A stretch of DNA of 52,936 bases, taken from positions 1 through 52,936 of IMG/VR virus record IMGVR_UViG_3300032213_002156; one strand, given 5' to 3'. Both the position numbers and the translations under genes were made by a program. Within the stretch, counting starts at the first letter, position 1, and each line of letters starts with the position of its first letter. Below, one piece after another: positions 9,601 to 42,546 of this stretch. This DNA comes from a virus (Duplodnaviria > Caudoviricetes). Under the pieces are notes generated by a model that was not told the DNA's origin, made no database searches, and saw nothing but the letters and a program-made list of their open reading frames with translations.

Positions 9601-12600
9601 TTACATTGCGCTGTACACTACCAGCGCCCGGGAACACAGTGCCGTCGGTCGGTGCACCACTATAGATACTGCAATTATTTGGGCACAAGTCAACAGACTG
9701 TCCAAAGTTAACAAACCCTGCATTGGTAATATCAGTAGCAGTACCAGTACCGGAACCTGCCCCGGTTGCAATAAACACTGTTCCTATATTATTATTTACA
9801 GCTCCAACACTAATAAAATTAGTGTTCCCAACAGTTGCAATACTGTATGACTGGCCGACAATAAATTGTCCTGCGTTAACAGTTGCAGGGCGTTGTGTAA
9901 TCTTCTGTACCGATCGGAAAATATTACTTTCAATTTCAATTATGTCGCCAACTACCAGTGTTACATTATCTTCTAGTGTTACTGTATTGCCCGACACTGT
10001 AAATTGTCCGTCAATAAATTGGCCAGCATCGGTTAAAAACGCATTGTTAATTGTTACAGATACTGGGGTGTTAAATCCAGCAGGTAATGTAAAAGTTTTT
10101 ACTCCTGTTTCACCGATACCAACTTGATATCTTGCCACACTCCGATTGTACACATAGGTACTGCCATAGGCCAATCCATTGTTGTCATCAGTTGGTGCTC
10201 CAATGATTATCTGCTGGCCGTCTGTTGCTGTTGCTACACTTGTTCCAAATCCAGAACCTACTGGACCGGAAATAGTTTCAACATACGTAAAATATGAACC
10301 AGTTTCGGCGATAATCTTAGTGCCGGCAGCCGGTAGCGTAACAAAAGTTAATGTAGTTCCTGCAAACGTATAATCAATGTACGGTCGTTGTAGCGCACCG
10401 TTAACAGTAACGCTGAAAGAATTAAGATTTGTAGCGGTGTATAGTGTTGTACTTAGATCAAATACAGAAGTTGTTGAAACGCCAGATCCAGAATATGTGT
10501 ATTCCGTTATTGATCCAACATCGTCAATTGCAGTTACAGTGATTGTGATATCATTTGCCGGCGATGTTCCGCCGCCGATTGTTGCTGCATCAATTGTAAT
10601 TGTATTTCCAACTTCGTAGAATACACCAGGTTGAGTCATTGTAACTGTGTATACTCCGCGAACTCTTTTAACTGTAAATAATGCAAGTATGCCCGGACCG
10701 TCGGTTGAGTCCTGCTCAACATTGTAATAGGTTTCAGCATCCAATTGTGTCAACATATTTCTTGTTATTACAACTGGTAAATCTCTAAGGGGAGGAGTGG
10801 CAAATACCACATCCAATGAATTCAGAGTATACTCAACTCCATACGTTTGAACCACAGCATTAACAGTTACAGTTATTTGTCCAGGCTCTGCCAAGTCAAA
10901 TACTAAATTATCGCTGTAATTAAACGACGTAGTAACACTGTCGCCAATGTACTTTACTTCTTGAATTTCCAAATCCGAACGACCGTATGCATACACTGCA
11001 TTTTGCGCTGGGGCACCGACATACGCCCACCGTTCGTCTCGGCTGATTGCCACAGCGGAGCCAAAACTTCCTGCGCTGTTACCATAGTCGGGTGCAATCA
11101 ACAATTGTGTTTGTAGGAATTCATTACTGGCAGGTGCTCGGTACAGTATAACTGTATATCCGTCGCCACCGTTACTTTGTCCGGCTCCGGCAATGGCCCA
11201 GGATTGATATCCAATGTCTAATGCACTACCATATCCTACTGTACCGGTAGTTCCTAATTGTATTATTGGGCTTTCTTCATATGTACCGCGTTGGCCGCGG
11301 AGGTATGGATAGATTGCACCCGCGCCATCATCGTACATTGGTGCACCAATCAATGCCGCAATATTTTCGTACGCTTGAGCAACACTTGCGCCGTAGCCCG
11401 TGTTATATAATGGCGTGTTTTGATCGAGTGCGTAGCCGGGTGCAAAAACATTTTGTTTTTCAAGTACTTCCCACAACCCAGCACCGTTGTTGTCAACCCA
11501 GGCCATTGCACCTGGTATCAAGTCATTGGCAAATGATAATGTGCCAACATCACTGGCTTGAGCGACACGCATAGTGTCGAGATAAAATCCTATTCCTGAT
11601 CCAGTTATAGTAGTTTGATTACCATTTGGAAATGTGTACGCAACAGTGAGCGTGGTTGGAGTAGGAGTAGTTAGTACACGATATACGCCATTGAAAGAGT
11701 CATTGAAGAATCGAACAATTAATATATCGCCTAGAGATAAATTATGTACCTGAGTAAATGTTACTAGACTGGCACCGTCGAGATTGTCAGTAACACGAGT
11801 AACTCTACCCGGCACTTGAGTAGTACGATAAACATTCCAATCATAACTGTTGGTTTTAGCTACCCAAATTTTTGTACCATTGCCGATTGAGTCCAAGTTA
11901 GCGGCAATATTACTTGGATCATCTAAAGAAAATACTGTTATATCAACGTCGTCGATGTTGACATAGCCTGCGCTTGGCAACGCTGTATCGGTCATCTGAG
12001 TTGTGGTGGTGGTTAAGAAATTCGGCGAAGTTAACTTGTAACTTTCGCGCCACACATCATTTAACAACACAGTCTGATTTGCCAAACTTGTTTCGCCTGG
12101 CAAGATTACTTGTATGGTAGACGGATCACTTTGTAACAACGGCTCGTTTAATCGCAACTCAACATAACTGCGATTTGCGTTTGCTCCATATGTGCCGCGG
12201 CGTATAGCCCAGTTTTCGTAAATTTGATAATCTGCAGTCTCTTTACCAAGGTTGGCACCAGTGAATAATTCGGCACTTAATATTGTTCCTTTGGTGCCAA
12301 TAAATTGTTGATATAAGTTAACCTGACTAGCATCGTCGAGATTAATTGCAACCATGTATTCTCTAGGCTGGAATCCGATCAATCCAAAACTCAGTAGATC
12401 GTTATCGCCTTCGAGGTTTGCAGTTTGCGTGTTGTAACTGTTCTCTATCTGATCTGCTTTGTTTGCAATATTAGGCAACAGTCCTTTTTGTATCTTGGTG
12501 AAGTCACTTTTAACCCAGTCAGCATAGGCAAATTCTCTCTTGGGCTGAATAATATCTTGTGCGGACCAATAGTTGTTTTTGTAAAGAACAATCTCGCCCT

Positions 12601-15600
12601 TGGCATACTTGATATTTGGACTCCATTCTTTAATGTTGTCTCGGTTAAGCACAAAGCCTTGTGCATTTAATGTTCCGTTCCACTCAGTGGTTGTAATAGC
12701 ATTAACATAAATGCGATTTTGTCGTGCACCAGTTGCTGGATTGTAAATTAAATCTGCAAAAATACTGATGTTGTTAAGTATTACAATATCTTCATAGTTA
12801 ACAAATTGTAATTTTACATAGGAAATTGCCTGGTTGTTTGTGCCATTTATTGTGAATCGATTTTCTAATCGCTCAATTACCAAGTTTCTAGCATCAAACG
12901 GTGTGCGGTTTTGATCCAGCAACATATTTTCTGGATTTTGAACACTGATGCTGTCAACCACTGCGCCGGGTCTTTCTGCAATTAATTGCAGTGCGGCAGG
13001 ATTTAAATTGATTAAACTGTCAACTGCCCAGCCCTGGTTTGCCCAATAAAGAAACTCGCTGGCCATTTGCTTCCAGTCAAGTGTGTACCCATTTTCTCGT
13101 GTGTCAAATATTAACCCTTGTGTGGTCAAGTATTGTCCATAGCTTAACAAAAAGTCAACCACAGATGATTGGTTAGTAAACACAAACCCGTATGGAACTT
13201 GCACAATATCATTTGTATATTGCCGTGGGACTCGCACTGTACTGCCCCCGGCACTGATGGTTTGCAACTCGCCACTGGCACGACTTGCATAAATGTCAAA
13301 GTACGGATCGGTTGTACTGTAACCAAAAACTGCATATCCTGTATCAGTGAGTTGGATAATCACTGCACTGTATGCTACAGACGCAAAGGGTGAGTTTTTG
13401 TACAACATCAAGTCGTAGCTTTCGTCTGGCAACAATAAACTTGAATTTAAACTGTTAGGGCTAGAACGTTCTGTGTATATTTTTAAATATTGTTTATCTG
13501 TAAAACTTGCAGTTCTCCAGCACAAACGAACATCAAGATTTGCCAGTGCTTCTTCCAGTGCCTGTGTTGAATTAATGCCCAGCTGTTGATTGTAGTCAAC
13601 AATCCAGTTGATGTAACTGGCCTTGCTGACAGGAGTAACAACACCTGTTGATGTGTTAACGTTACCACCATACACTTGTACGCCGCTGGCGTCTAGTCGA
13701 TATCGACCATTGTACAAGTACTGTTGAAATTCTGTGCTGTACTTGTAAAGGTCTCGGTCCGCAAACAAGCTGAAGAATTTTGCAGGGCGTGTCAGTGCCA
13801 ACAAGCGCATGACAGCAAATGGGTAACTACTAGAGGTCCACCATGCAGCCTCTACTGGGCCGCCATCGCCGACCACCCAACTCTTGCGCCAAGCAGTAGG
13901 ATCATATTGTCCAACAACACTATCCAATGGAGCCAGTAACTGGCCTTCTGTGCCAGTTGGTATAAAGTAAGTTGATAAGTTTGGTCTTATAAAGTTGGGT
14001 CTAACATAAGCGCCTGCCGGATCGGCCACAATACCCGCTTGTATGTCATCCCATAACACCAAGTTGTCCTGTGTGTATGGCGCAGGGCCATATCGTGTTT
14101 CCCACCATGAGGGCATTTGACTAAAACCCAACATCTCCCACGGAGTGTAGTTTGGAGCCAGTGTATCATAAAAATATCTACTGATGCCGCGCCAGGCTCC
14201 CAGCAACGGCAAATCTTTTTCTTTGTCTCCTGCTTGACTATAGTTGTAGGTAAACGGATTGCTGGCAATGTACTGCTGTGTTTTGTAGTCTAGCTTGTTT
14301 TGTCCTACCCAAGTCAAAAAACTTTCGCCTAGAATAGTTGTAATCTCAGCCTGGGTATAATCTGTTGTGCGGAAATATCCCGGAATAACTTCTTCAGGTG
14401 GAATTGGTACTGGATTACCTTCGGTTTTTAAGTTGTTGAAAATTCTACGTTCAAATTCTAATAAGATATCATCGCGCATGTCGCCAAAGGCTGTGGTAAT
14501 ACTGCCATCGTGTCCACGGATAACAACAGTTGGGTTTACATAGTTTTCATCCAGGAACATTTCAGGTTTATATGCCTGATACAATCCCATTTTGGTAGGA
14601 GTGTTGGGGACAAAGTTACCGGCAGTGTCTGCGTATTCACGAATGGTAACTACATCGCCAACTGTCAACGTAACAGTAACAGTCAGTGTTGGACTGTCTG
14701 CTGATACAGTGTAATCAGAGTTTAATGTTAGCAGTGTATCGTTTAGATAAACCAATAACCCTAAAAAGTTTGCAGAAGTAAATGTGTGCGTTTGTAGGGT
14801 GTCAAATGTTCCAACTGTAATTGGAGTTACTGTATAAACAGTATCCGTGTAGACATTGCCGCTGGGCAACATGTCGCTGTAATAAAAGCTGTTTAAGTTA
14901 GTTTTACCAATGTTTAAATCAGTGACCACAGCGTCAAGAATTTCGCTTGTTGTTAAATTGCCCCATTCTCCTCGAATAGTGTTTTCTAACAGTCTGTTTT
15001 TAAATTTATTATATTCTCTATCGTTAAACTCTAACGATTTAAAGATATTATACTCACTGCTTCGCATAAAGAAGCCGGCCAGAGTCAATGGTGCGCTCTG
15101 TTCCAGTATAGTTGTACCATAGCGACCAATGTCGCCTAGATCGCGTGTGTTGTTTGCGCCGTTGATGACACCTGCAAAGTTGATTAAATTTCTAGCAATG
15201 CTTTCGTAATGTGTTCGTATAGTACCCAATGTGAAATAAGGACTGTTAACGTTAAACGGATTATTTGCCAAATTAATTGGCACTTGATAAAATCCATTGT
15301 CACTGGGCTCCGTGCTCAAGACCTGAACTTCAATGATTGACCCTGGTGTATAGATATTATTCAATACAATTGTAGTTGTAGTATTGGTTCTTGTTACTGT
15401 GTACTCTGCAGGCAAGATATACGTGTTGGCCACATAAAGTTGTATTGGCGGAACAACTGTGTTCTCAGGTATATTGATATTAAATCGTAACGGAGATCCA
15501 TCGTATGTAAACTGGAATTGTTGACGAATCAAACTTGGAGTCGCGGCCACTTGCCATCCAAGTTCTCGTTCGTAGACGACTCGACTGGCATATTGATACG

Positions 15601-18286
15601 AGTAGCCATCACTTATATTAAGAGTCTCAGAGGTATTTTGTACAACATACGTAAATTGATCTGTATAAAAATTATTATCAAATACAATGTCACCAATGTT
15701 GTTTATACTTAGATAACGAAGTGGAAATCCCAGCACAGTATCTGCGACACCTTGGCCAGTGGCATAACTGAACAACTTACTACCAGCAAATGTAGTGCTA
15801 GGATACTTGCTACGGTCGCTAAAACTAATGCCAGCAGAATCATACACATTAAACAATGGCGCTTGATTTGTCTTTGTCTTTTGTTGTCCTTTTATCCAAG
15901 CAACACCATCATAATAATAACTTGTTCCTTGTGTTGTTAATCCGTTAAGTGTAACTACTGTTTGATCAACTAGTACCGTGGAGTCATCAGCAGGAACTAG
16001 ATCAATGATAGGTTGTATAATTAGTGGTGGTACAGTGTCGGGTGTAATGAAATTTACAACGTAAATTTTATTTCTAACTTCTGGATCGGTGTCTGCTGCA
16101 AAAATAACACGGGTGCCTTGAACAAATTCGTATCCATCAATGCCGTAACCAAGTGATCCATTAATGGTACTCAGTGCGTCTGTGACAGCAAAGTCAACAA
16201 TATTAACTGGAAGTTTTCCTTGCGTTCCAAAATCATATAAGCGTGTTCCTGCATTAAATTCTATAATAGGGCGTTTAGCACTTTGACTGTTGCTTATAGT
16301 TGGTGTTGTGTTATTATACGCCGCAGATGCATTGATAACATCAATGTGGAACCAACGATTACTACGTGTCCAAGCACTTAAATCAGGGCTGGCACGACCA
16401 ATTGTAAGATACTCTGGGATCAGTGGCGCATTCAAAGAAGCATCATAGTTTCCAACATCGTATCTAAGACTATCATAAGGAATAAATGCATTTTGGGTAT
16501 ATGTTTCTGGCGTGACAAAATCAGTAACTGGCAATAATTTAATTGCTGTTCCAACACCTTCAACATAGTATTCTTGGTTTTCATACTCGGCCGGTATTGT
16601 GCTGCCACGAAATTGAACTTTAAGTCCGTTGGTAAACACTACGCCATTTGAACTGGTGTAGTTTGGGCGGCCAATGATGTCGTTGATATAGGTTGTGGTC
16701 GCATTGTCTTGATCAAGCAAATGAATTTGTCCGAAAATACCAGGATCTGTTCCGTCTTGATAGTACAATGTATCTTTGATTGCTGTTAGCAAAGGAATTG
16801 CTTGAAAATATCCTTCGGCATTTTTATACCAACTGGTATTTGAATATTGGTTACCAAAAGCAATAGAGAATTTCGTTAACTCAGCAACGTCGAGTATACT
16901 GGTCAACTGGATGTACTCTACACTGTCAATTGTGACGTAATTGATTTGCCAAACACTGTATCGTTGTTCTGGGGTAAGATCAACTGTTACTTCATACGGG
17001 GCAGAATCAAAGCCTCCGTCAACAGTTGAAATAATTTGCCAGCCACCTTCGGCTGCGCCTTCTACTGTGCTTAAAAATACCAGTGTTCTGCCATTGATAT
17101 TGGTAGTGCCGTCAATGCCTGTTGCGTTGTTCAAAAAGAATGTTGAAACAGGAATGTTGTTGATTTCGCTGAACATTAAATTTGTAGCCAGGTCAACTGA
17201 CCCAATGCTGTCAAGTCCGTAGTAAAAACTCTGCGCAGTGGATAACGGTACATTAAATGTTACGGCTCCAAGATCTTCGCCGTTGTTGGTTACGCCTAAT
17301 ACATCTCTACTGCTGATGTTAGGTGACCAAGGTAATACTCCGTTAACGCCAGGTTCTGCCTGTATCCAAAAACCTGGACCGGTACCAGGTGTCCCGTCAA
17401 TGATAGTCAACACGCCTTGCATGTTAAACTGTGTTTCACTTGCGTAGTACAGTGTGTCTGGGGCGTCTTGCGGAACAGTAAATGTGATGTTACCAGTGTT
17501 TGCACCATTGCGACTTACACCTTCGTTGTATTGATCAGTACGACCTTGCGATGGTGTTGTTTTAATCCAAAACGGAGACACTACGCCAAGATTTAAATTG
17601 AATACGTATGTGTTTCCACGCACAAGAGTCAGTGCCGGATTTGGCAAGTAATCAATGATGTATGCCGATGTTGTGGCCGCTGTTACACGATAGTTTACTG
17701 TTTCTGTTGCATTTTGTGCCACAGTGAATGTGTAGTTACCGCCACGCAATAATGTAATTGCAGGATTGGATCCGTTATAGTCTGAGAATGTATATACACC
17801 ATTTTCTCTTGTGACAATATAATCAGCAGAGAGTGGAACTGCTGTGCCGCCTACCGTAACTGACAGTGGGCCACTTGGCAACCAATAGTATTGACCGTAG
17901 TTTACAAACATGTCCCAGTTGATCTGCGGGTCCCAGGTATAGTACTCGCTAGTATAAAGCCGTTCGCTTTGATCAACAAAGGCACCTTGTGATCCCAATG
18001 AATCGGTAATACCTGGATAGGTAACTGCGTCTTTGATTACTGTGGAGTCAGTTTTTCTAAAGATAACGCCCGGTTCAAGTTGATAATCTGTGCGGGATCT
18101 AGTAGGTTCAATAACATATTTGTCATCAGCATTTACACCCGGGCCTACACGATGTCCAACATATCCTTGTGTCTTTTTAAACTGCGGCTCTTGTACCAAC
18201 TGATCTAGTGTGGCAGCTAAAAATTGCTTGTTTGTAGACGTCTGAAATATCTCTGGTAGAAAATCTACCGTTCTCACTGTGGCCAT
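3617..18286 (-). CDS. Giant baseplate wedge / virion structural protein (4889 aa)
   Basis: Coupled (TAATG) to the gp6-like gene. Contains FG-GAP-like propeller repeats (FGSAVAIS..YVGAP, FGTSVAT..IIIGAP, FGSEVFI..LVVGAP), Ig-like 'V.VNG..Q....DYT' repeats, a 'GSGYTVAPTITITG' motif and a 'YIQEVKPYH' wedge motif. Confidence 0.75.
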   Translation of the reverse strand: MATVRTVDFLPEIFQTSTNKQFLAATLDQLVQEPQFKKTQGYVGHRVGPGVNADDKYVIEPTRSRTDYQLEPGVIFRKTDSTVIKDAVTYPGITDSLGSQGAFVDQSERLYTSEYYTWDPQINWDMFVNYGQYYWLPSGPLSVTVGGTAVPLSADYIVTRENGVYTFSDYNGSNPAITLLRGGNYTFTVAQNATETVNYRVTAATTSAYIIDYLPNPALTLVRGNTYVFNLNLGVVSPFWIKTTPSQGRTDQYNEGVSRNGANTGNITFTVPQDAPDTLYYASETQFNMQGVLTIIDGTPGTGPGFWIQAEPGVNGVLPWSPNISSRDVLGVTNNGEDLGAVTFNVPLSTAQSFYYGLDSIGSVDLATNLMFSEINNIPVSTFFLNNATGIDGTTNINGRTLVFLSTVEGAAEGGWQIISTVDGGFDSAPYEVTVDLTPEQRYSVWQINYVTIDSVEYIQLTSILDVAELTKFSIAFGNQYSNTSWYKNAEGYFQAIPLLTAIKDTLYYQDGTDPGIFGQIHLLDQDNATTTYINDIIGRPNYTSSNGVVFTNGLKVQFRGSTIPAEYENQEYYVEGVGTAIKLLPVTDFVTPETYTQNAFIPYDSLRYDVGNYDASLNAPLIPEYLTIGRASPDLSAWTRSNRWFHIDVINASAAYNNTTPTISNSQSAKRPIIEFNAGTRLYDFGTQGKLPVNIVDFAVTDALSTINGSLGYGIDGYEFVQGTRVIFAADTDPEVRNKIYVVNFITPDTVPPLIIQPIIDLVPADDSTVLVDQTVVTLNGLTTQGTSYYYDGVAWIKGQQKTKTNQAPLFNVYDSAGISFSDRSKYPSTTFAGSKLFSYATGQGVADTVLGFPLRYLSINNIGDIVFDNNFYTDQFTYVVQNTSETLNISDGYSYQYASRVVYERELGWQVAATPSLIRQQFQFTYDGSPLRFNINIPENTVVPPIQLYVANTYILPAEYTVTRTNTTTTIVLNNIYTPGSIIEVQVLSTEPSDNGFYQVPINLANNPFNVNSPYFTLGTIRTHYESIARNLINFAGVINGANNTRDLGDIGRYGTTILEQSAPLTLAGFFMRSSEYNIFKSLEFNDREYNKFKNRLLENTIRGEWGNLTTSEILDAVVTDLNIGKTNLNSFYYSDMLPSGNVYTDTVYTVTPITVGTFDTLQTHTFTSANFLGLLVYLNDTLLTLNSDYTVSADSPTLTVTVTLTVGDVVTIREYADTAGNFVPNTPTKMGLYQAYKPEMFLDENYVNPTVVIRGHDGSITTAFGDMRDDILLEFERRIFNNLKTEGNPVPIPPEEVIPGYFRTTDYTQAEITTILGESFLTWVGQNKLDYKTQQYIASNPFTYNYSQAGDKEKDLPLLGAWRGISRYFYDTLAPNYTPWEMLGFSQMPSWWETRYGPAPYTQDNLVLWDDIQAGIVADPAGAYVRPNFIRPNLSTYFIPTGTEGQLLAPLDSVVGQYDPTAWRKSWVVGDGGPVEAAWWTSSSYPFAVMRLLALTRPAKFFSLFADRDLYKYSTEFQQYLYNGRYRLDASGVQVYGGNVNTSTGVVTPVSKASYINWIVDYNQQLGINSTQALEEALANLDVRLCWRTASFTDKQYLKIYTERSSPNSLNSSLLLPDESYDLMLYKNSPFASVAYSAVIIQLTDTGYAVFGYSTTDPYFDIYASRASGELQTISAGGSTVRVPRQYTNDIVQVPYGFVFTNQSSVVDFLLSYGQYLTTQGLIFDTRENGYTLDWKQMASEFLYWANQGWAVDSLINLNPAALQLIAERPGAVVDSISVQNPENMLLDQNRTPFDARNLVIERLENRFTINGTNNQAISYVKLQFVNYEDIVILNNISIFADLIYNPATGARQNRIYVNAITTTEWNGTLNAQGFVLNRDNIKEWSPNIKYAKGEIVLYKNNYWSAQDIIQPKREFAYADWVKSDFTKIQKGLLPNIANKADQIENSYNTQTANLEGDNDLLSFGLIGFQPREYMVAINLDDASQVNLYQQFIGTKGTILSAELFTGANLGKETADYQIYENWAIRRGTYGANANRSYVELRLNEPLLQSDPSTIQVILPGETSLANQTVLLNDVWRESYKLTSPNFLTTTTTQMTDTALPSAGYVNIDDVDITVFSLDDPSNIAANLDSIGNGTKIWVAKTNSYDWNVYRTTQVPGRVTRVTDNLDGASLVTFTQVHNLSLGDILIVRFFNDSFNGVYRVLTTPTPTTLTVAYTFPNGNQTTITGSGIGFYLDTMRVAQASDVGTLSFANDLIPGAMAWVDNNGAGLWEVLEKQNVFAPGYALDQNTPLYNTGYGASVAQAYENIAALIGAPMYDDGAGAIYPYLRGQRGTYEESPIIQLGTTGTVGYGSALDIGYQSWAIAGAGQSNGGDGYTVILYRAPASNEFLQTQLLIAPDYGNSAGSFGSAVAISRDERWAYVGAPAQNAVYAYGRSDLEIQEVKYIGDSVTTSFNYSDNLVFDLAEPGQITVTVNAVVQTYGVEYTLNSLDVVFATPPLRDLPVVITRNMLTQLDAETYYNVEQDSTDGPGILALFTVKRVRGVYTVTMTQPGVFYEVGNTITIDAATIGGGTSPANDITITVTAIDDVGSITEYTYSGSGVSTTSVFDLSTTLYTATNLNSFSVTVNGALQRPYIDYTFAGTTLTFVTLPAAGTKIIAETGSYFTYVETISGPVGSGFGTSVATATDGQQIIIGAPTDDNNGLAYGSTYVYNRSVARYQVGIGETGVKTFTLPAGFNTPVSVTINNAFLTDAGQFIDGQFTVSGNTVTLEDNVTLVVGDIIEIESNIFRSVQKITQRPATVNAGQFIVGQSYSIATVGNTNFISVGAVNNNIGTVFIATGAGSGTGTATDITNAGFVNFGQSVDLCPNNCSIYSGAPTDGTVFPGAGSVQRNVNQARVYGVISSQVPNPVLTGGDTIRIDNYEITIPLSPNNTVAGVVNAINSANEGVGIPNVRASAPGDLYFTADGVTKTYDIGVTYSQYATYNPVVYVDGTLQILNVDYTYNNSTGIISFIYSPEAQAIILVVQGILTLNVINAAAVLSNSRLTVSPGVVGTAFADFGFVEYVYTQTITSPAPTVDANFGSEVFINTDATTLVVGAPRGNLYEPVTFDNDTTYFDDRSTVFSTVVVQSGVTYTFDYLPSSTDSVSNPGQFVFGQQMYDSNITPLDQYGTAISYVTGRLLIGSPGSDFGDSSNSNYGRVSVFENADRTPAWTVKHVQQPVVEIALLNSVYMYDKLESTITSYLDFIDPLQGKILGVARENIDYIGAVDPASYNNGPVRNIGNPWAAARIGEIWWDTNSVRFIDPNQDDIVYASRRWSQVFPGSSVDIYQWIESDVTPAAYTGPGTPLSVVSYTTRSELNTDNIFATRYYFWVRNIATVATAANKKLSTNAIANYISNPRSSGISYLAPLNASTVAIYNVMGLISAQDTILHIEYDRIKNDDNVHQEYELIADGIADSFLSAGLYLKLQDSLSGVNITGAQVPDASLSPAERYGVEFRPRQSMFVDRFAALKNYFGYANRIMANYPIAETKSLTLLNSKDTEPTATQAYYAGTFNIGDTYTISYVGTTDFTAIGASSNAIGVSFVATGVGQGTGTATFTNWNFRVADITELGYQNLLIVPYGYRYLVATDSSNQGFWTIYDVIAGPLVGSKELRLVRVQNYDTSRYWSYINWYTPGYNSTVNPVATVVNYAELAGITLNVAPVGASVKVTNAPAGKFEIYQRTLTSWDRVGLEDGTIELSAELWNYSLGNFGFDSEVFDAQYFDQEPVIETRKIVQAINQQIFIDELAINRNRSLMLMFEFIMSEFSAPDWLLKTSLIDVNHKIRSLLPYQLYRQDNQDFVLNYIQEVKPYHVQIREFNLQYTGNDEYPGSITDFDNPAFFDETLTVPQFIAPVLLPYTESTANSPTNSNADTASNAIIWTETPWVDWYNNYTLTVQSVVITNTGSGYTVAPTITITGAATVPAEMTAVVNSAGQVVGVNITEYGSGYVTTPIITFVGGNGSGATAAVVMGNDLVRQIKTTIKYDRYQYFSTIQEWQPNVNYDDGTQVRYADRVWQAASPDSTGVQSATFDPLDWILVNAGTLSGVDRTMGFYTPTVNQPGLSLPLLIDGVEYPGVQVFGVGYDQYPGFDVAPYDSTPFDNLTYGPEGRPTFDQTILDTIFESPYTDPYLGTRPTSINVEGGEYIDVYSSYAPEELVPGSEFDTLDIRVYTTPGADWARDGHGFRTEVRKFTVTSVGETYSFAGVTPVPATMLIANQTLGLDLAIDVSYTANWAEQTITLDPSVAVGSEIVITLYEIGGGNQLFKRAYNGAEIGSSVVVPVKYSLIDQFVIFANGTLTTDYTFVPYGTTSTEVVFGTPYTINDYLMIGAIGPTTIDGTEIDYSWSVPVTQYITGVTGVLEYDLTNSMEYTNPDNVVVTFNGIRARTSAGIEYLADGTTDYLLPTRLGFSQSTISDNEVHVYVDNVPQVLGVDFTVEPYDPNTPRAVMFTEPLTLGEKILICVTTGTQASVVGTQLLFNAFNGMVPSNGDIIAVTSWNDTRQQDILTQVYVGPVSSTALPAIVEPFSSTKYDNPPGDASVEPGQYDFSTPRPVTLNNLYLNRVITNPDRLWVTLNGLQIFVNDGFTIVDNQIVLASGYIMSATDVVMITEFTNSVAPEAMAFRIFQDMRGVQATYRITPATTTYLVAPLSTTDDVIYVHNAAALNEPNLAMNIWGLLTINGERIMYRNRDTVANTVSGLRRGTAGTGVASHAVDADVYNISRGNLLPPQFQNYIVSNITYPLVPGVNLGDGVTTSFVAELIDVSAADSTVDNEAVEVYIGGIRQYGGYTITNENPVTVEFNTAPPEGVEVTILVRRGVTWYAPGINTPSNGVALQDTETQAARFLRGE

Positions 18287-38402: not shown

Positions 38403-40115
38403 ATGCAAGGATTTAAAATATCAAGCGTCACTGAATATCAATTGGAGATTACCTCTTATTGTAATGCCGCTTGTCCGCAGTGTCCACGCAACGTCAACGG
38501 CAGCGGTGTTAATCCACATCTTACACTAGAACATCTTCCTAGATCGGTAATAGACGCTGCCTTCACAGAAGATCTGTGTCTTAATTTAAGACAGGTATTC
38601 TTCTGTGGCAGTTACGGCGATCCTATTATGCATCCAGACTTCCTGGATATACTACGTGACTTTAGACACAAGTGTCCGACACTGTGGTTGTACATACACA
38701 CCAATGGCGGTGCCCACGATACAGAATATTGGACTACAATGGCAGAGATCATTGGAGGGTATGGTCAGGTAGACTTTAACATCGACGGAGTTGAAGATAC
38801 CAATCACTTGTACCGGCGCAATACAGACTTTAACAAAATTATTGCCAATGCCACTGCGTACATCAATGCAGGTGGACGTGCGGTGTGGAACTATATTATA
38901 TTTGAACACAATCAGCATCAAGTTGAGCAGGCAAGAGAGTTAAGCATCAAATTAAGGTTTAAAGATTTTAAACATCGTGCTACTGGTAGATTCTTAAATC
39001 ACAAAACCATGGAAGAATTTTCAGAATGGCCTGTGCAGAATCGACAAGGCGAAACAGAGTATGTTATCAAGCCCACTGTGTTAAAACAATACAAAAACAA
39101 AAGCATTAGCATACTTCCAGATTTAAAAAAGCAATACCCGGATATCAAAGAATATTTTGCCAACACTGAGATTAGTTGTGACTCGCTAAAAGGCAACAAA
39201 GTTGCTATCAATGCCGCAGGACTTGTGCTACCATGTAATATGTTAAGCCACAACCTGAGCGATGCCAGATTTCGTGACCAATCTGTTCTGCCGTGTAGTA
39301 ACGATTTAAGCACTGTGGATGGCAAAAATCAAGTGCAAGAATTTGTCAACCGTCACGGTGCCAACAACTTAAACATACATCATCGTTCGCTGGAACAGGT
39401 GTTTGATAGTTCTTTCTGGACAGATCTTGTAGATAGTTGGAAGTATAATACATTTCCTGAGAGATTATTTGAGTGTGCAATGACCTGCGGTAAACAGTTT
39501 CAAAAAGTATGGGATCAAACTAAAATGAACAAGACATTCTTAATCACTGGCGGCAATCGAGGTCTAGGACTACACCTAACAAAAACGTTTGGCGGAACTA
39601 GTGTTAGCCGGGTTCAAGGGTATGATATTACAAAACATGCTAAAGAAATTGCAGAAATAAGTTTAGACTTTGATGTGTTCATCAACAATGCGTTTGACGG
39701 GCCTCCACAAGAAGATTGGGCCAACTTTGCACAATCGCAAATATACATGGCAGTATATGATGCGTGGAAAGCGGCAAGAAAAGCCGGCTATATCATTAAC
39801 ATTGGCAGCGCCGGCAGCAAAAGTATTGTTGCTCCGGAGCCAAGATTTGAAACATATAGAATTAGTAAGGCAGCCCTAGAACACGCAAGTCGTCAAGGCA
39901 CACAGGCATTTAAACAAAACATTGTACCATTTAAAACAACACTCATTACACTAGATAGACTAGACACAGAACTTAGTCGTGGCCGTACCAATTGGACAGG
40001 CAACGGCATTAATTTAAACGACATCAGCAACTTTATAACATACGCTACCACAGTAAGTTCAAATACTGTGGTAGAAGAGGCAACTTTTTACGTGAACTTT
40101 GATCATAAGGCATAA
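38403..40115 (+). CDS. Radical SAM (with SPASM/twitch-like Cys region) fused to a short-chain dehydrogenase/reductase domain (570 aa)
   Basis: 'CNAACPQC', 'GSYGDP', 'HTNGG', 'IDG', auxiliary Cys 'ISC...GLVLPC...CAMTCG'. From residue 375 an SDR: 'LITGGNRGLG', 'INNA', 'INIGS', 'YRISK' (YxxxK). Confidence 0.85.
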   Translation: MQGFKISSVTEYQLEITSYCNAACPQCPRNVNGSGVNPHLTLEHLPRSVIDAAFTEDLCLNLRQVFFCGSYGDPIMHPDFLDILRDFRHKCPTLWLYIHTNGGAHDTEYWTTMAEIIGGYGQVDFNIDGVEDTNHLYRRNTDFNKIIANATAYINAGGRAVWNYIIFEHNQHQVEQARELSIKLRFKDFKHRATGRFLNHKTMEEFSEWPVQNRQGETEYVIKPTVLKQYKNKSISILPDLKKQYPDIKEYFANTEISCDSLKGNKVAINAAGLVLPCNMLSHNLSDARFRDQSVLPCSNDLSTVDGKNQVQEFVNRHGANNLNIHHRSLEQVFDSSFWTDLVDSWKYNTFPERLFECAMTCGKQFQKVWDQTKMNKTFLITGGNRGLGLHLTKTFGGTSVSRVQGYDITKHAKEIAEISLDFDVFINNAFDGPPQEDWANFAQSQIYMAVYDAWKAARKAGYIINIGSAGSKSIVAPEPRFETYRISKAALEHASRQGTQAFKQNIVPFKTTLITLDRLDTELSRGRTNWTGNGINLNDISNFITYATTVSSNTVVEEATFYVNFDHKA

Positions 40116-40146: not shown

Positions 40147-40578
40147 ATGACATGGCTATATCAAGATGCTCCAATTGAGACGTTGCCCGAAGAATGTGTT
40201 GGATTTGTTTACTTAATCACAAATAATCTCACCGGACGCAAGTACATAGGCAAAAAATTAGCAAAATTCTCAAAAACAACTTACAAAACTGTAAAACAAA
40301 AGAACGGCATTAAGAAGAAGAAAAGAATCCGCAGTAAAATTGACAGTGATTGGCGCGAGTATTATGGGTCAAGTCCAAATCTTACAGCAGACATTGAGGC
40401 ACTAGGCAAAGAAAACTTCATCAGAGAAATACTTTATTATTGTAACTCTAAAGCAGAATGTAGTTATGTTGAAGCAAGAGAACAATTTTCACGCATGGTA
40501 TTAGAAACAAATGATTATTACAACGGACACATTCAGGTGCGTGTGCATGGTAGTCACATAAAAAAAATAAAAAAATAA
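40147..40578 (+). CDS. GIY-YIG family endonuclease (Seg-like catalytic domain only, 143 aa)
   Basis: 'GFVYLITNNLTGRKYIGKK', 'YYGSS', 'GKENFIREIL', conserved Glu 'YVEAREQ', 'YYN'. Lys-rich insert; no C-terminal NUMOD DNA-binding module. Confidence 0.85.
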   Translation: MTWLYQDAPIETLPEECVGFVYLITNNLTGRKYIGKKLAKFSKTTYKTVKQKNGIKKKKRIRSKIDSDWREYYGSSPNLTADIEALGKENFIREILYYCNSKAECSYVEAREQFSRMVLETNDYYNGHIQVRVHGSHIKKIKK

Positions 40579-40581
40579 AAT

Positions 40582-41592
40582 ATGATATTAATTTTAACTG
40601 ATCCAGGAGTGGGAGGCACGTTTTTAACATGGAGCCTTCATTACCTTGCTGGACACAAAAATTATTTTCATTCTAAAACTAATAGGTGGGTTGACATACC
40701 CGAAGATCCAAACACTAATACCAATGCTCATCTATTTCTTCCAAATCAACCTCTTAACATTAATCAATCACATAACATATTAACTACTTTAAAAAATATT
40801 ACTACTTCTGATTTTCATACTATGTATTTTCACAATCTAAATGACGATGTCAGATCTTGTAATTCTCGTATTAATCCCGGTGATAACCATCTACCCACCA
40901 CTGAATTAATATCTTCTATTGCTCCAGAATTTAAAAAAATTATTGTGTTATCTAATAGCCATCCGTTGTATCAATGCTCATCGAGATTTAGAGTCTTGAC
41001 AGAAAAATGGTCTGATTTTGACAAAAGAAATTTATCTAACGAAGAGCAACTACTAGACTATGTTGAATACTTTTTTACCGATAGTTATAAAATTTGGCAA
41101 GAACAAAATTTAAATCATGTCTGGGACCAACGAGAATTTCTAGCATTAAATATGCGTCCATTTGCTGTTAAACAAATCGCGGGTAACGTTGATTTAACCA
41201 TTACTCATTATAATTTCAATACAGTTGAATTGTATACTATGTTTGATCAAACAGTTGATCAACTGTTTGAGTTTTTAGAAATTAATATCGACAACACCAA
41301 AAAATCTCGCTGGATTACAGTTTATAACAAATGGAAAAAAATACATGCTAACAGACTGTTATTTGCCATGTACTTTGATACTATTGTGGATTATATCATT
41401 AATGGAAATAATATGGATCTAGTAAGATTTGATCTTGATCTGGTTCAAGAAGCGGCTATACAACACTACCTTATATACAAACACAATTTAAACTTAAAAA
41501 CTTGGCAATTAGAAAAATTTACAAATACCAAACAATTATACAATCTTTTAGAACCAAACACCCACACGTTAGAAAACACGTATCTAATATAA
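40582..41592 (+). CDS. AT-rich hypothetical protein, sulfotransferase-like P-loop (336 aa)
   Basis: N-terminal 'ILTDPGVGGTFLTWSL' resembles a PSB-loop. Similar architecture to 33496..34377. Confidence 0.5.
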   Translation: MILILTDPGVGGTFLTWSLHYLAGHKNYFHSKTNRWVDIPEDPNTNTNAHLFLPNQPLNINQSHNILTTLKNITTSDFHTMYFHNLNDDVRSCNSRINPGDNHLPTTELISSIAPEFKKIIVLSNSHPLYQCSSRFRVLTEKWSDFDKRNLSNEEQLLDYVEYFFTDSYKIWQEQNLNHVWDQREFLALNMRPFAVKQIAGNVDLTITHYNFNTVELYTMFDQTVDQLFEFLEINIDNTKKSRWITVYNKWKKIHANRLLFAMYFDTIVDYIINGNNMDLVRFDLDLVQEAAIQHYLIYKHNLNLKTWQLEKFTNTKQLYNLLEPNTHTLENTYLI

Positions 41593-41594
41593 AA

Positions 41595-41940
41595 CTAGGC
41601 AACAATTACGACCGTGTGGTGAGTGCATTGGCTCACCCCCATTGAAGATATGTGCAATACCATATTTGGACTTGGGCGTCAAAGGCAATTGCTAACTTAA
41701 GGCAACAAATGGTTTGGGCTCTGTGAAGAAGATACACCCCATGCTTATAGGACTTGGATCTATATCGGGTTACTAGGGTTCCGTTGATATGTGAAGCTTG
41801 AGTAGGGGGTACCGGTCAACCGCCTCCGCGTAGGAAACTACAATCTCATTACGATAGATGACTGGGCTACTCAGATAATGCTCTCTCATGTTCACCGTGC
41901 ATACGGTGAATTATGACCAGTTAATCTAGATAATACTTAA
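41595..41940 (+). ncRNA. Candidate large structured non-coding RNA (unassigned family; strand inferred)
   Basis: No ORF of 60 aa or more, and more GC-rich than the upstream gene. Hairpins at 41618-41637, 41646-41667, 41762-41790, 41830-41841 (GTAG-GAAA-CTAC, a GNRA loop on the + strand) and 41891-41910 (8-bp perfect). Long-range helix TGAGTAG 41799-41805 / CTACTCA 41867-41873. Confidence 0.6.
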
Positions 41941-41959
41941 AAAAAAGAAATTAGAAAAA

Positions 41960-42004
41960 TATTGATGAGCGATAGCGAAATCAATAGAACTTCGCAGAAG
42001 TTCT
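41960..42004. terminator. Twin hairpins at the convergence of two transcription units
   Basis: TATTGAT..ATCAATA (41960-41986) and AGAACTTC-GCA-GAAGTTCT (41986-42004). The A-rich tract 41939-41959 gives U-runs on the minus strand after the mtnN stop. Confidence 0.55.
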
Positions 42005-42546
42005 TACACAGTTACACCAAGTTCAAGTAGTTTAGCAATAAAGAACTTTTCTCCCAAAGATACAGATTCTTTCCATGAATCCGATGCTTGAGCATCTGCT
42101 TGATCTGTAATATACTTGAAGCAACGAAACTCAATCTTATTGCGTATACAAGCCTTTGCGATAGAGTATGCTTCCATGTCGACTAGATCTGCAGGAATAC
42201 TAAGAATTGGATTCATTACAAAGTTGTCACCGGTACTGCATGTAAGTCCGTGAGTTCCTGTACTTAAAATAACATCATCCTCAAATGGTGTTTGCCCGTC
42301 TAAGCATCCCAGGGCTTGACACAAGATATCTCGTTGTACAAAACAAGTACATTCGTGCAGTCCGGGTCCAGCAGTTATGCCACCTGCTGTTCCAACATTA
42401 ATAATACGATCTGGTTGATATCGTTCAATTACCTGAGCGGCTGTTAATGCCGCATTTACCTTGCCTACCCCAGTATAAAAAACATTCATCATGTGTCGTA
42501 GGTTAGGAGCCTCGCCAGGTAAGGCAATCAACACTACTGTTTTCAT
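42004..42546 (-). CDS. mtnN: 5'-methylthioadenosine/S-adenosylhomocysteine nucleosidase (180 aa)
   Basis: PNP_UDP_1 motifs 'IALPGE', 'TGVGKVNAA', 'INVGTAGG', 'STGDNF', 'VDMEAYSIA', 'KYITDQAD'. Confidence 0.88.
   Translation of the reverse strand: MKTVVLIALPGEAPNLRHMMNVFYTGVGKVNAALTAAQVIERYQPDRIINVGTAGGITAGPGLHECTCFVQRDILCQALGCLDGQTPFEDDVILSTGTHGLTCSTGDNFVMNPILSIPADLVDMEAYSIAKACIRNKIEFRCFKYITDQADAQASDSWKESVSLGEKFFIAKLLELGVTV

What the first reader, a model, noticed from the sequence alone, without database searches (positions are those of the whole stretch)
41595..41940. Candidate new large structured ncRNA with two ATGAC-N10-AGATAAT boxes
Seen: this ~350-nt ORF-free stretch is the only long intergenic region in an otherwise tightly packed window. 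It is dense in helices: GGTGAG/CTCACC, AGATATG/CATATTT, ATATCG/TGATAT, CGG-TCAA-CCG, GTAG-GAAA-CTAC, TTCACCGT/ACGGTGAA. The 3' part has two copies, 55 nt apart, of ATGAC-(10 nt)-AGATAAT-R-CT (41858-41882 and 41913-41937), separated by the perfect hairpin. The 3' end of each 10-nt insert can pair with an upstream CTTG-led segment (TTGAGTAG 41798-41805 with CTACTCAG 41867-41874; TTGGAT 41754-41759 with ATCTAG 41924-41929), giving two nested, similar modules. Short direct repeats AGGCAACAA (41597, 41700) and GGACTTGG (41668, 41750) add to the modular look. Inference: a folded RNA with a duplicated protein-binding or tertiary module, loosely like box C/D or kink-turn architectures. I cannot match it to tRNA, tmRNA, RNase P or an intron.
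Basis: partly seen in the sequence, partly recalled or inferred. Interest (0 to 1): 0.85.

Follow-up and report, generated by a model that had tools for sequence, protein, structure and literature searches.

The report
New large structured jumbo-phage RNA
The gap holds a gene for a roughly 410-base folded RNA that matches no known RNA family, is shared by well over a hundred related giant-phage genome fragments, and has an odd pair of boxes that always change together.

Summary
The finding holds. Window 41597-42004 (+ strand) encodes a ~410-nt structured RNA, about 65 nt longer at the 3' end than reported.

- **Conservation:** 114 of the first 120 share 76-94% identity over 149-527 nt, while their flanks diverge.
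- **Structure:** on 85 distinct copies, 92 pairs are 97.5% paired against 85.9% in shuffles. 56 pairs show changes on both sides.
- **Strand:** invariant G-U pairs place the RNA on the + strand.
- **Known families:** no Rfam 15 family matches, even at E<=5-10. ARAGORN finds no tRNA or tmRNA.
- **Expression:** contigs from four RNA libraries cover it, which is weak evidence.
- **Copy number:** one copy in a complete 347-kb phage genome, far from its tRNA cluster.
- **Boxes:** both boxes are real. Their 7-nt tails were identical to each other in 135 of 136 parsed loci, across nine different words. Base pairing does not explain this.
- **Context:** a small nuclease gene usually lies just upstream, GIY-YIG in 141 loci and PD-(D/E)XK in 8.

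Function is unknown. My best guess is a ribonucleoprotein scaffold with two kink-loop-like modules.

The parts
41597..42004 (+). Whole RNA gene (~410 nt). It starts a few bases after the stop codon of the upstream ORF and ends at a hairpin that reads as a terminator.
   Evidence: Conservation starts near 41597 and ends near 42005, while flanks diverge. 92 pairs, 56 with changes on both sides. Invariant G-U pairs fit only the + strand.
41610..41680 (+). 5' domain. Closing helices 41610-12/41678-80 and 41638-41/41673-76 enclose hairpin H1 (41618-24/41631-37) and hairpin H2 (41646-67, conserved loop).
   Evidence: helices 1-5. H1 positions show up to 4 pair types (for example 120:138 = CG 30, GC 20, UA 17, AU 14).
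41689..41705 (+). Hairpin H3, with the near-invariant loop AACUUAA.
   Evidence: helix 6 (4 of 5 pairs change on both sides). Loop letters are invariant.
41715..41741 (+). Hairpin H4, with the conserved purine-rich loop GUGAAGAAGAUACA. This loop is kept even in divergent members.
   Evidence: helices 7-8. Divergent loci L087, L091 and L100 keep it.
41743..41779 (+). Long hairpin H5. Its loop (41760-41764) pairs with 41852-41857 to form a pseudoknot.
   Evidence: helix 9 (14 pairs) and helices 10-11 (5 pseudoknot pairs, all changing on both sides; 291:551 = CG 49, UA 21). First seen as MI pairs.
41799..41848 (+). Central three-way junction. Closing helix is 41799-802/41845-848. The near-invariant core hairpin pairs 41805-09 with 41823-27 and 41813-15 with 41820-22. 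Hairpin H7 (41830-41841) carries a GNRA-type loop.
   Evidence: helices 12-17. In loci found with a different word, the outermost core pair switches from G-C to A-U (A at 41805 with U at 41827) in at least 25 of 42.
41858..41881 (+). Box A: AUGAC, then a variable 7-8 nt insert, then CUC, then the 7-nt tail X (41873-41879, AGAUAAU here).
41890..41911 (+). Hairpin H8, between the two boxes.
   Evidence: helix 18 (9 pairs, 3 changing on both sides).
41913..41937 (+). Box B: AUGAC, then a variable 7-nt insert, then UCU, then tail X (41928-41934). This tail has the same word as in box A.
   Evidence: Tails identical in 106 of 106, 29 of 30 and 111 of 111 distinct parsed sequences.
41961..41985 (+). 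Hairpin H9, with an internal GA / GAA loop and a 2-bp tip (GC..GC).
   Evidence: helices 19-20 (8 of 8 pairs change on both sides). The motif is kept in divergent loci.
41986..42004 (.). Hairpin H10. It reads as a terminator on the - strand, and in many relatives it is followed by a T-run on the + strand. It probably terminates transcription in both directions.
   Evidence: terminator-like site on the - strand. helix 21 (6 of 7 pairs change on both sides). T-rich tails are visible.
40147..40578 (+). Gene for a 143-aa protein that consists of a GIY-YIG domain only. It is the usual upstream neighbour of the RNA.
   Evidence: Pfam PF19835, E 4.7e-32. On the same strand upstream in 141 of 166 loci, within 60 nt in 107 of those 141.
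40582..41592 (+). 336-aa ORF with no family match, lying between the GIY-YIG gene and the RNA.
   Evidence: No Pfam or PHROG match and no tblastn match in phage isolates. RNA-library contigs of relatives do not cover it.

Best explanation
**What it is.** Window 41597-42004 (+ strand) is the gene for a stable, multi-domain noncoding RNA of about 410 nt. The RNA belongs to a clade of jumbo phages whose nearest isolates by portal protein are Atu_ph07 and PA5oct.

**How it is made (inferred).** It is transcribed at the 3' end of a rightward operon. It begins directly after the stop codon of the last ORF, which is usually a small nuclease gene. It ends at a hairpin that probably terminates transcription in both directions.

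**Fold (shown by covariation).**
- A 5' junction domain.
- Three hairpins with conserved loops.
- A near-invariant three-way junction, tied to hairpin H5 by a pseudoknot.
- A 3' domain in which two similar boxes flank a hairpin.

**How it works (inferred, not shown).**
- It acts in trans as the RNA core of a ribonucleoprotein.
- Each box folds as a kink-loop-like purine-rich motif: 5' R-U-G-A facing 3' G-A-U-R, with a 12-13 nt loop.
- The two boxes bind two copies of one partner. This would be why their 7-nt tails must stay identical to each other.
- The invariant junction is the functional centre.

**How sure I am.** That it is a genuine structured RNA family: about 0.9. This particular mechanism: about 0.35.
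For: **Conservation**
- 114 of those 120 align to the window over 149-527 nt at 76-94% identity, and the flanks do not align.
- A second, independent 16-mer gave 42 further loci. Of these, 41 are true copies and one is a chance match.
- Variability shows no 3-base periodicity.

**Structure**
- RNAalifold on 85 copies gave 93 pairs, 50 of them with compensatory changes.
- On my curated 92 pairs, which include a pseudoknot, 97.5% of cells are paired. Shuffles give 85.9%, and none of 500 shuffles reached the observed value.
- The covariation score is 0.351, against at most 0.062 when partners are slid by 1-3 columns.
- The core hairpin itself covaries (G-C to A-U) in loci that were not selected by the core word.

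**Strand**
- G-U pairs are invariant in 85 of 85 copies, for example 339:357 and 272:311.

**Novelty**
- 0 Rfam hits at gathering score in the whole window.
- Only two chance-level hits at E<=10 in 41400-42150.
- 0 hits at E<=5 in six other loci.
- 0 tRNA or tmRNA genes in the window.

**Expression**
- Contigs from 4 of 4 RNA libraries, from four studies, cover 41612-41947. Two of them differ from the window at only 3 positions.
- One 871-nt contig joins the GIY-YIG gene to the RNA.

**Boxes**
- Tails are identical in 106 of 106 loci (7 words), 29 of 30 and 111 of 111 distinct sequences (8 words).
- Divergent members keep the rule with quite different words (read by eye).
- No column of five neighbouring proteins comes near that coupling. 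The best MI is 0.73 where H is about 1.
- UGAC/UGAC on the 5' sides is constant in 101 of 111 sequences.
- The base before UGA in box B pairs with tail position 5 as A-G 54, G-A 32, A-A 16, G-G 7.

**Copy number**
- A covariance model finds exactly one copy (E 4.4e-35) in a complete 346,856-bp genome.
Against: - No experiment supports any function, and no protein partner has been identified.
- An L7Ae-family gene is absent from the window and from the complete relative genome.
- The kink-loop reading rests only on which letters are constant. It is weaker in the divergent members.
- Identity of the tails is not needed for the local pairing I propose, so it remains unexplained in itself.
- The RNA-library evidence comes from assembled contigs. 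They give no strand, no ends and no exclusion of DNA carry-over.
- The near-invariance of the core is partly circular for the first 120 loci, because they were picked by that very word.
- The tight link to nuclease genes could mean a functional partnership that my reading ignores.
Confidence: 0.5

Rival explanations
1. The RNA is a guide or scaffold for the small nuclease encoded just upstream. The single-domain GIY-YIG or PD-(D/E)XK protein has no DNA-binding domain. The RNA would position two nuclease copies, and its two identical tails would read two identical half-sites, for example the two strands of an inverted repeat.
For: - A nuclease gene lies upstream on the same strand in 149 of 153 loci that are not cut (141 GIY-YIG, 8 PD-(D/E)XK). 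The GIY-YIG gene ends within 60 nt of the RNA in 107 of 141.
- The 143-aa protein is a GIY-YIG domain alone.
- Two unrelated nuclease families occupy the same slot.
- The tails differ between lineages but are always identical within one RNA.
Against: - Homologues of the GIY-YIG protein (38-49% identity) occur in 507 isolate phage records.
- In the two such records I opened there is no room for this RNA downstream.
- The covariance model, run on those two genomes, gave no hit in one and a chance-level hit (E 0.24) elsewhere in the other.
- 34 of 141 loci, the window included, have 62-1954 nt between the gene and the RNA. L091 has no nuclease gene there at all.
- Most loci belong to one clade with conserved gene order, so adjacency may be inherited.
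- No protein column tracks the tail word.
- 7 nt is short for a guide.
- The 9-mer complement is not enriched in a complete genome.
Confidence: 0.08
2. The RNA has its own, still unknown function, and the nuclease genes beside it are selfish homing endonuclease genes. These would use the highly conserved RNA gene as their target or landing site, as free-standing endonuclease genes do next to conserved genes in T4-like phages (recalled knowledge). This explains the adjacency but not what the RNA does.
For: - Three nuclease architectures occupy the same position: GIY-YIG alone, GIY-YIG plus NUMOD3 (357 aa, L033), and PD-(D/E)XK_15.
- PHROG matches include homing endonuclease families.
- Extra genes are inserted between the nuclease gene and the RNA in 34 of 141 loci, which marks a plastic region.
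- The RNA also occurs without any adjacent nuclease gene (L091).
Against: - The 143-aa form is present in nearly all copies and is well conserved (61-87% identity to the window's protein in 29 of 30 aligned copies, and 37% in the divergent L087). Selfish endonuclease genes are usually patchy in distribution.
- It lacks a DNA-binding domain.
- Its best PHROG match is a broad family present in hundreds of cyanophages.
Confidence: 0.25
3. The element is a cis-acting 3' untranslated region. It would protect, process or regulate the operon's messenger RNA, for instance the nuclease message, and would not act in trans.
For: - It begins right after a stop codon and shares the operon's terminator.
- One RNA-library contig joins the gene and the RNA.
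Against: - About 400 nt with a near-invariant junction, a pseudoknot and conserved loops is far more than a 3' stabiliser needs.
- The upstream gene differs between loci: GIY-YIG, PD-(D/E)XK, an unrelated 336-aa ORF, or a gene on the other strand.
- The RNA stays the same across these contexts.
Confidence: 0.1
4. The RNA is a ribozyme. One version of this reading is a leftover of a group I-type intron that once carried the endonuclease gene.
For: - The near-invariant core and pseudoknot resemble a catalytic centre.
- It is associated with endonuclease genes of intron-borne types.
Against: - No match to the group I or any other ribozyme model in Rfam, even at E<=5-10.
- No exon can follow on the + strand. 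Two noncoding, covarying hairpins and then a convergent gene come next.
- The upstream ORFs end with ordinary stop codons.
Confidence: 0.07
5. It is a DNA-level element, with the two boxes acting as repeated protein-binding sites (iterons of a replication origin, or promoter-like sites), or it is a hidden coding region.
For: - Direct repeats that change in concert are typical of repeated protein-binding sites on DNA (general knowledge).
- The element lies where transcription converges.
Against: - Compensatory changes occur in 56 of 92 pairs.
- The many invariant G-U pairs make sense only for RNA of the + strand.
- Variability has no 3-base periodicity.
- The spacer between the promoter-like hexamers is 10 nt, not 16-18. 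The promoter scan finds nothing there.
- The cumulative GC skew shows no turn at this point.
Confidence: 0.03

Closest known systems
GOLLD, ROOL and OLE: large ornate noncoding RNAs of bacteria and phages with no known function (Rfam families; functions and phage association recalled, plus abstracts listed)
   Same: - Several hundred nucleotides long, with many covarying helices, conserved loops and a pseudoknot.
- Carried by phages.
- Function unknown.
   Different: - No sequence or structure match to any of them.
- Smaller, at about 410 nt.
- Not next to tRNA genes. The complete relative genome has 27 tRNA genes about 80 kb away, and the window has none.
- Carries the duplicated boxes with identical tails.
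Box C/D RNAs and their kink-turn or kink-loop motifs (consensus RUGAUGA / CUGA, recalled)
   Same: - Each box has UGA on the 5' side and GAUGA or GAUAA on the 3' side.
- These could form tandem sheared G-A pairs plus a U-U pair, closed by a loop, as in a C'/D' kink-loop.
- There are two such motifs per RNA.
   Different: - No full C or D box.
- The loops are 12-13 nt long.
- The RNA is four to six times longer.
- No L7Ae-family gene in the phage.
- Bacteria are not known to use box C/D guides (recalled).
- No identified target for a guide.
HEARO/omega RNAs and other nuclease-associated guide RNAs (IscB, TnpB; recalled, and the abstract of PMC10055086 listed)
   Same: A large structured RNA is encoded next to a small nuclease gene, and part of the RNA differs between lineages.
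   Different: - The nuclease here is GIY-YIG or PD-(D/E)XK, not RuvC/HNH.
- The RNA lies 3' of the gene and is followed by a terminator.
- No transposon ends were seen.
- The variable words are 7-9 nt and come in two identical copies.
- No Rfam match.
Group I introns carrying GIY-YIG endonuclease genes in T4-like phages (recalled)
   Same: A structured RNA of a few hundred nucleotides is physically linked to a GIY-YIG gene in a T4-related phage.
   Different: - No match to the intron model.
- No downstream exon.
- The RNA lies at the end of an operon, between convergent genes.
Small RNAs derived from 3' untranslated regions in bacteria (recalled)
   Same: It starts just after a stop codon and shares the operon's terminator.
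   Different: It is far larger and more structured, and it keeps its form whatever gene lies upstream.

Membership tests
Any of the 4227 Rfam 15 families | Covariance-model score at or above the family's gathering score | tested here: not met
   - 0 hits in the whole window.
- Only two chance-level hits at E<=10 in 41400-42150 (17.7 and 15.7 bits, against cut-offs of 80 and 42).
- 0 hits at E<=5 in six homologous loci, 24,668 bases.
tmRNA / tRNA | tRNA-like acceptor and T arm, and a tag reading frame | tested here: not met
   ARAGORN finds 0 genes in the window. No Rfam tmRNA family hits.
Group I intron | Match to the intron core model | tested here: not met
   No hit at E<=10 or E<=5 in six other loci.
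Group I intron | Exons on both sides, on the same strand | tested here: not met
   Two covarying noncoding hairpins and then a convergent gene follow the RNA.
Kink-turn / kink-loop (box C/D-like) | Tandem sheared G-A pairs with an adjacent U-U pair, formed by a UGA strand and a GAU strand | tested here: inconclusive
   - The letters are constant as required: UGAC/UGAC in 101 of 111 sequences, and GAU in nearly all tails.
- Purine-purine combinations occur at the next position.
- Geometry cannot be tested with these tools.
Kink-turn / kink-loop (box C/D-like) | A partner protein of the L7Ae family | tested here: not met
   PF01248 is absent from the window and from the complete 346,856-bp relative genome at E<=1. 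A host protein was not examined.
Kink-turn / kink-loop (box C/D-like) | A guide stretch complementary to a methylation target | not testable with these tools
   The host is unknown. No complementary site was found in the phage loci.
GOLLD/ROOL-type large phage RNAs | Homology to the family model | tested here: not met
GOLLD/ROOL-type large phage RNAs | Frequent position next to tRNA genes (recalled feature) | tested here: not met
   The window has no tRNA gene. In G001 the 27 tRNA genes lie at 3 kb and 103-116 kb, and the RNA lies at 195 kb.
Nuclease guide RNAs (HEARO/omega type) | Encoded beside an IscB or TnpB-type nuclease | tested here: not met
   The neighbours are GIY-YIG (PF19835) or PD-(D/E)XK_15 (PF24608) proteins.
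Riboswitch or other 5' leader | A regulated gene downstream on the same strand | tested here: not met
   The next gene is on the opposite strand. A convergent gene also follows in relatives, with one conserved neighbour in 69 loci.
Sigma-70 promoters (reading the boxes as -35/-10 hexamers) | Spacer of 16-18 nt between the hexamers | tested here: not met
   The spacer is 10 nt, and the scan lists no site in 41593-42003.

The most novel reading that the evidence does not exclude
The RNA is the targeting subunit of a new kind of RNA-directed nuclease. A scaffold RNA would carry two identical 7-9 nt recognition strands. These strands would place two copies of a minimal, single-domain nuclease on the two half-sites of a symmetric DNA target. 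The nuclease would be GIY-YIG, or PD-(D/E)XK in some lineages. This reading would explain three things: why the tails must be identical within an RNA yet differ between lineages, why the nuclease lacks a DNA-binding domain, and why two nuclease families occupy the same slot.
Probability: 0.07. Interest if true: 0.95.

Novelty: categorically new. Interest (0 to 1): 0.78.

Why it matters
**What is new.** This is a new class of large structured RNA, with depth that few candidates reach.
- At least 165 natural copies.
- 56 covarying pairs and a pseudoknot.
- A core that is almost frozen in sequence.
- No resemblance to any of the 4227 curated RNA families.

**Why specialists would care.**
- Large, intricate RNAs with no known function are rare. 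They have repeatedly turned out to be catalysts, ribonucleoprotein cores or self-assembling particles.
- Jumbo phages are a frontier in which noncoding genes are almost unstudied.
- The rule that the two box tails are always the same word, while that word changes between lineages, is a kind of covariation that base pairing does not explain. It points to a partner that reads both boxes. That is directly testable by mutating one tail, or both.
- The constant company of minimal nuclease genes raises the possibility of a new RNA-nuclease partnership.

**Limits.**
- Function is unknown.
- No cultured phage carries it.
- Pieces of it may already sit unnamed among the 8,495 candidate motifs of PMC10690425. 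I could not see that paper's supplementary tables.
- "Categorically new" here means new as an RNA class. It does not mean a proven new mechanism.

Tried and rejected
**Searches for relatives or known families**
- Blastn of the 411 nt against 50,697 isolate phage records gave no match.
- Tblastn of the 336-aa ORF gave no match.
- Covariance model R1 (152 positions; H4 through the pseudoknot) gave no hit in Atu_ph07, PA5oct or Melnitz-3. In BUCT-ZZ01 it gave only a chance-level hit, E 0.24.
- Single-sequence folding energy was not informative.

**Looking for a partner of the box tails**
- No complementary copy at a fixed place within 3 kb.
- No third sense copy.
- The 9-mer complement is not enriched in the complete genome G001: 1 forward and 4 reverse, two of the latter being the boxes themselves; the control gave 1 and 3.
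- I could not make pairing between the two variable inserts, or a switch in which both tails compete for the AUUAU after H8, work for all variants. I judged this by eye.
- No column of five neighbouring proteins tracks the tails.

**The GIY-YIG protein**
- Phmmer against PDB sequences gave only a chance hit.
- The AlphaFold model is confident (pLDDT 91), but Foldseek found no PDB match with E<=0.001.
- My recalled idea that it is the counterpart of T4 endonuclease II therefore stays untested.

**Sequencing runs**
- 15 DNA runs hold small shares of the words. I did not lay them, so they are no evidence of habitat.
- In one search, parts of the stretch without cover (40604-41611 and 41948 onward) prove nothing.

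**Literature**
- Four word searches and passages from two papers gave no description of this RNA.

Full report
**1. What is in the window**

The stretch 41593-42003 has no ORF of 60 aa or more. It lies between the end of a + strand ORF (40582..41592) and the end of a - strand gene (42004..42546). Its G+C is 0.43-0.48, against about 0.30 in the genes upstream.

The window is an IMG/VR virus record that CheckV rates 15% complete. It carries T4-like baseplate, portal and SbcC-like genes. Its portal protein is closest to those of the jumbo phages Atu_ph07 (53.8% identity) and PA5oct (49%).

**2. A conserved family**

It also occurs in three MAG contigs among 185,579 species genomes. In my own blastn, 114 of the 120 loci align to the window over 149-527 nt at 76-94% identity. 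The alignments begin near 41597 and end near 41990-42005, and the flanks are not alike. The other six loci (L033/L080, L087, L091, L100/L121) share only 25-74 nt by blastn. Read by eye, they keep the same order of elements.

Picking loci by the core word makes the invariance of that word circular. I therefore repeated the scan with a different 16-mer, 20 nt upstream. This added 42 loci that lack the exact 20-mer, and 41 of them are true copies. In these the core is still nearly constant. In at least 25 of them, the first G of GGGGG (41805) is A and the last C of CCUCC (41827) is U. That is a compensatory change in the outermost core pair.

Variability has no 3-base periodicity: entropy by phase is 0.66, 0.63 and 0.71. 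The region is therefore not coding.

**3. Structure**

I aligned 85 distinct full-length copies to make alignment A1. They came from 98 untruncated sequences. Ten exact duplicates were removed, and L033, L091 and L100 were left out as too divergent for MAFFT.

RNAalifold predicted 93 pairs, 50 of them with compensatory changes. A mutual-information scan added two features:
- a helix 41799-41802/41845-41848, which closes a three-way junction;
- a pseudoknot between the loop of the long hairpin (41760-41764) and 41852-41857.

For the resulting 92 pairs:

| Measure | Observed | Control |
|---|---|---|
| Cells forming a standard pair | 97.5% | 85.9% in shuffles (0 of 500 as high) |
| Pairs with changes on both sides | 56 | 39.2 in shuffles |
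| Covariation score | 0.351 | 0.062 or less with partners slid 1-3 columns |

These controls do not remove relatedness. However, many positions show three or four pair types, and changes recur in different sub-lineages.

Several G-U pairs are invariant or nearly so (339:357, 272:311, 284:299). On the - strand these would be C-A mismatches. The RNA is therefore the + strand.

The fold, in window coordinates:
- **5' domain, 41610-41680:** two closing helices around hairpins H1 and H2.
- **H3, 41689-41705:** loop AACUUAA.
- **H4, 41715-41741:** a conserved purine-rich loop.
- **H5, 41743-41779.**
- **Three-way junction, 41799-41848:** holds the core hairpin and the GNRA-capped H7.
- **Pseudoknot strand, 41852-41857.**
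- **Box A, H8 (41890-41911) and box B.**
- **An A-rich linker.**
- **H9, 41961-41985:** has a GA/GAA internal loop.
- **H10, 41986-42004.**

H10 is listed as terminator-like on the - strand. In many relatives it is followed by a T-run on the + strand. It probably ends transcription from both sides.

**4.

Five of the six local helices are confirmed. ATATCG/TGATAT is not, because 41765-41769 pairs within H5.

The two long-range helices are possible in most sequences (87.2% and 95.7% of cells). Neither has a single change on both sides, and neither differs from shuffles. One of them clashes at 41799 with the well-supported 41799:41848 pair. I treat them as unsupported, not as refuted. They could be alternative conformations.

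**5. The boxes**

Each box reads: (A/G)UGAC, then a variable insert of 7-8 nt, then CUC (box A) or UCU (box B), then a 7-nt tail.

The tails of the two boxes are the same word in every count but one:

| Set | Identical tails | Distinct words |
|---|---|---|
| Parsed loci of the first scan (duplicates included) | 106 of 106 | 7 |
| Parsed new loci (12 of 42 not parsed) | 29 of 30 | n/a |
| Distinct parsed sequences of both sets | 111 of 111 | 8 |

- The single exception differs at the last letter.
- All four combinations of A/G at tail positions 1 and 5 occur, and they occur with different insert types. The changes were therefore repeated and independent.
- The divergent members keep the rule with unrelated words: AUGGGAA, AUGAAG, AGCAAA and GGGAAA (by eye).
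- As a yardstick for shared ancestry, the best column in any of five neighbouring proteins reaches MI 0.73 where full coupling would be about 1.0.

This is identity, not complementarity, so a helix between the tails or with a common complementary strand does not explain it. I found no complementary or third copy nearby or in a complete genome.

The constant letters fit a purine-rich non-canonical helix closed by a 12-13 nt loop, like a kink-loop. These letters are UGA on the 5' side and GAU on the 3' side. The predicted pairs are A-G, G-A, U-U and then purine-purine. In box B that last position reads A-G 54, G-A 32, A-A 16 and G-G 7. No L7Ae-family gene is present in the window or in a complete relative genome.

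**6. Context**

I examined 166 loci. One of them, L170, is the chance match.

| Upstream of the RNA, same strand | Loci |
|---|---|
| Homologue of the 143-aa GIY-YIG protein | 141 |
| PD-(D/E)XK_15 protein (six end within about 32 nt of the RNA start) | 8 |
| Cut by a contig end | 13 |
| Neither found (L091, L048, L122, L170) | 4 |

- The GIY-YIG gene ends within 60 nt of the RNA in 107 of the 141. In the other 34, the window included, 62-1954 nt lie between.
- L033 has a 357-aa GIY-YIG plus NUMOD3 protein. L091 has a PrkA kinase gene on the other strand.
- Downstream genes are convergent and largely the same across loci (DUF6614 in 69). Most copies therefore sit in one syntenic clade, and adjacency alone does not prove a functional link.
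- Homologues of the GIY-YIG protein (38-49% identity) occur in 507 isolate records, mostly Kyanoviridae. In the two I opened they follow ribonucleotide reductase genes and leave no room for this RNA.
- A covariance model of 152 positions finds exactly one copy in a complete 346,856-bp genome with terminal repeats, at 195,407-195,557, E 4.4e-35. It finds none in Atu_ph07, PA5oct or Melnitz-3.
- That genome's 27 tRNA genes lie at 3 kb and 103-116 kb.

**7. Expression**

One search found four RNA libraries from four studies that hold a small share of the words. When laid at 80% likeness, contigs from all four cover 41612-41947. Examples are 41687-41852 with 3 differences, 41762-41940 with 3, and 41693-41907 with 7. 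They also cover the GIY-YIG gene. One 871-nt contig joins the gene to the RNA with 279 other letters between them.

These are assembled contigs. They show presence in RNA libraries, not strand, ends or level, and DNA carry-over is not excluded.

**8. Comparison with known families**

- No Rfam 15 family matches at gathering score in the window.
- At E<=10 in 41400-42150 there are only two chance-level hits.
- At E<=5 in six other loci there are none.
- ARAGORN finds no tRNA or tmRNA.
- It is not a leader or riboswitch, because no gene follows on its strand.
- It is not an intron, because there is no downstream exon.
- It is not a promoter pair, because the spacer is 10 nt.
- It works most like the large ornate RNAs of unknown function (GOLLD, ROOL, OLE), but it is not a member of any of them.

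Literature searches found no description. One study predicted 8,495 short candidate motifs, 67 nt on average, from IMG/VR (PMC10690425; I read passages only). It could contain fragments of this RNA in supplementary tables that I could not open.

**9. Mechanism**

- **Shown:** conservation, fold, strand, single copy and the tail-identity rule.
- **Inferred:** transcription from the upstream operon, with termination at H10.
- **My best guess (about 0.35):** a trans-acting ribonucleoprotein scaffold whose two kink-loop-like boxes bind two copies of one partner, with the frozen junction as the functional centre.
- **Rivals:** a partnership with the adjacent nuclease (0.08); a cis-acting 3' element (0.10); a ribozyme or intron remnant (0.07); a DNA element or coding region (0.03).
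- **Independently of what the RNA does,** the nuclease genes may simply be homing endonuclease genes parked beside a conserved target (0.25). This reading is compatible with my best guess.

**10. Verdict**

This is a real, well-supported and apparently undescribed class of large structured phage RNA. The function and the meaning of the identical tails remain open.

Noticed in passing
window 40582-41592 (+): A 336-aa ORF with no Pfam or PHROG family and no tblastn match in 50,697 phage isolates sits between the GIY-YIG gene and the RNA. About 24 of 141 related loci also have 0.7-1.2 kb inserted at this spot, so it looks like a hot spot for gene insertion.
   Followed up: partly
window 40147-40578 (+): The 143-aa GIY-YIG protein gives a confident AlphaFold model (pLDDT 91) with long beta-hairpins. 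Foldseek finds no PDB chain with E<=0.001, despite a strong Pfam SegE_GIY-YIG match. Its PHROG family (447) is labelled 'NAD synthetase', which looks like a propagated misannotation.
   Followed up: partly
L123 and L124 (NZ_JBBAKG010000003.1, NZ_JBBAKG010000001.1): Two large contigs (148 kb and 183 kb) of a Haliscomenobacter MAG each carry a copy of the RNA with the usual phage neighbours. They are either jumbo-phage contigs binned with the bacterium or a hint to the host.
   Followed up: no
window 3617-18286 (-): A single ORF of 4,889 aa lies next to the baseplate genes. I did not examine it.
   Followed up: no
window 38403-40115 (+): A 570-aa protein combines a radical SAM domain with a weak short-chain dehydrogenase-like C-terminal part. 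It is conserved upstream of the GIY-YIG gene in 58 loci.
   Followed up: no
window 41597-41603 and 41700-41706: Both copies of AGGCAAC could pair with UUGCU (41689-41693), so the 5' end might compete with the 3' strand of hairpin H3. Many relatives lack the 5' copy, so this is not general.
   Followed up: partly
G001:C1:102805-116350: The complete 346,856-bp relative genome has 26 tRNA genes clustered within about 14 kb, plus one at 3.3 kb.
   Followed up: no
window 41845-41851 vs 41869-41875, and 41765-41771 vs 41925-41931: Each box contains a look-alike of the local 3' partner of an upstream helix (CUCA and AUCxxG). Covariation neither supports nor excludes this.
   Followed up: partly
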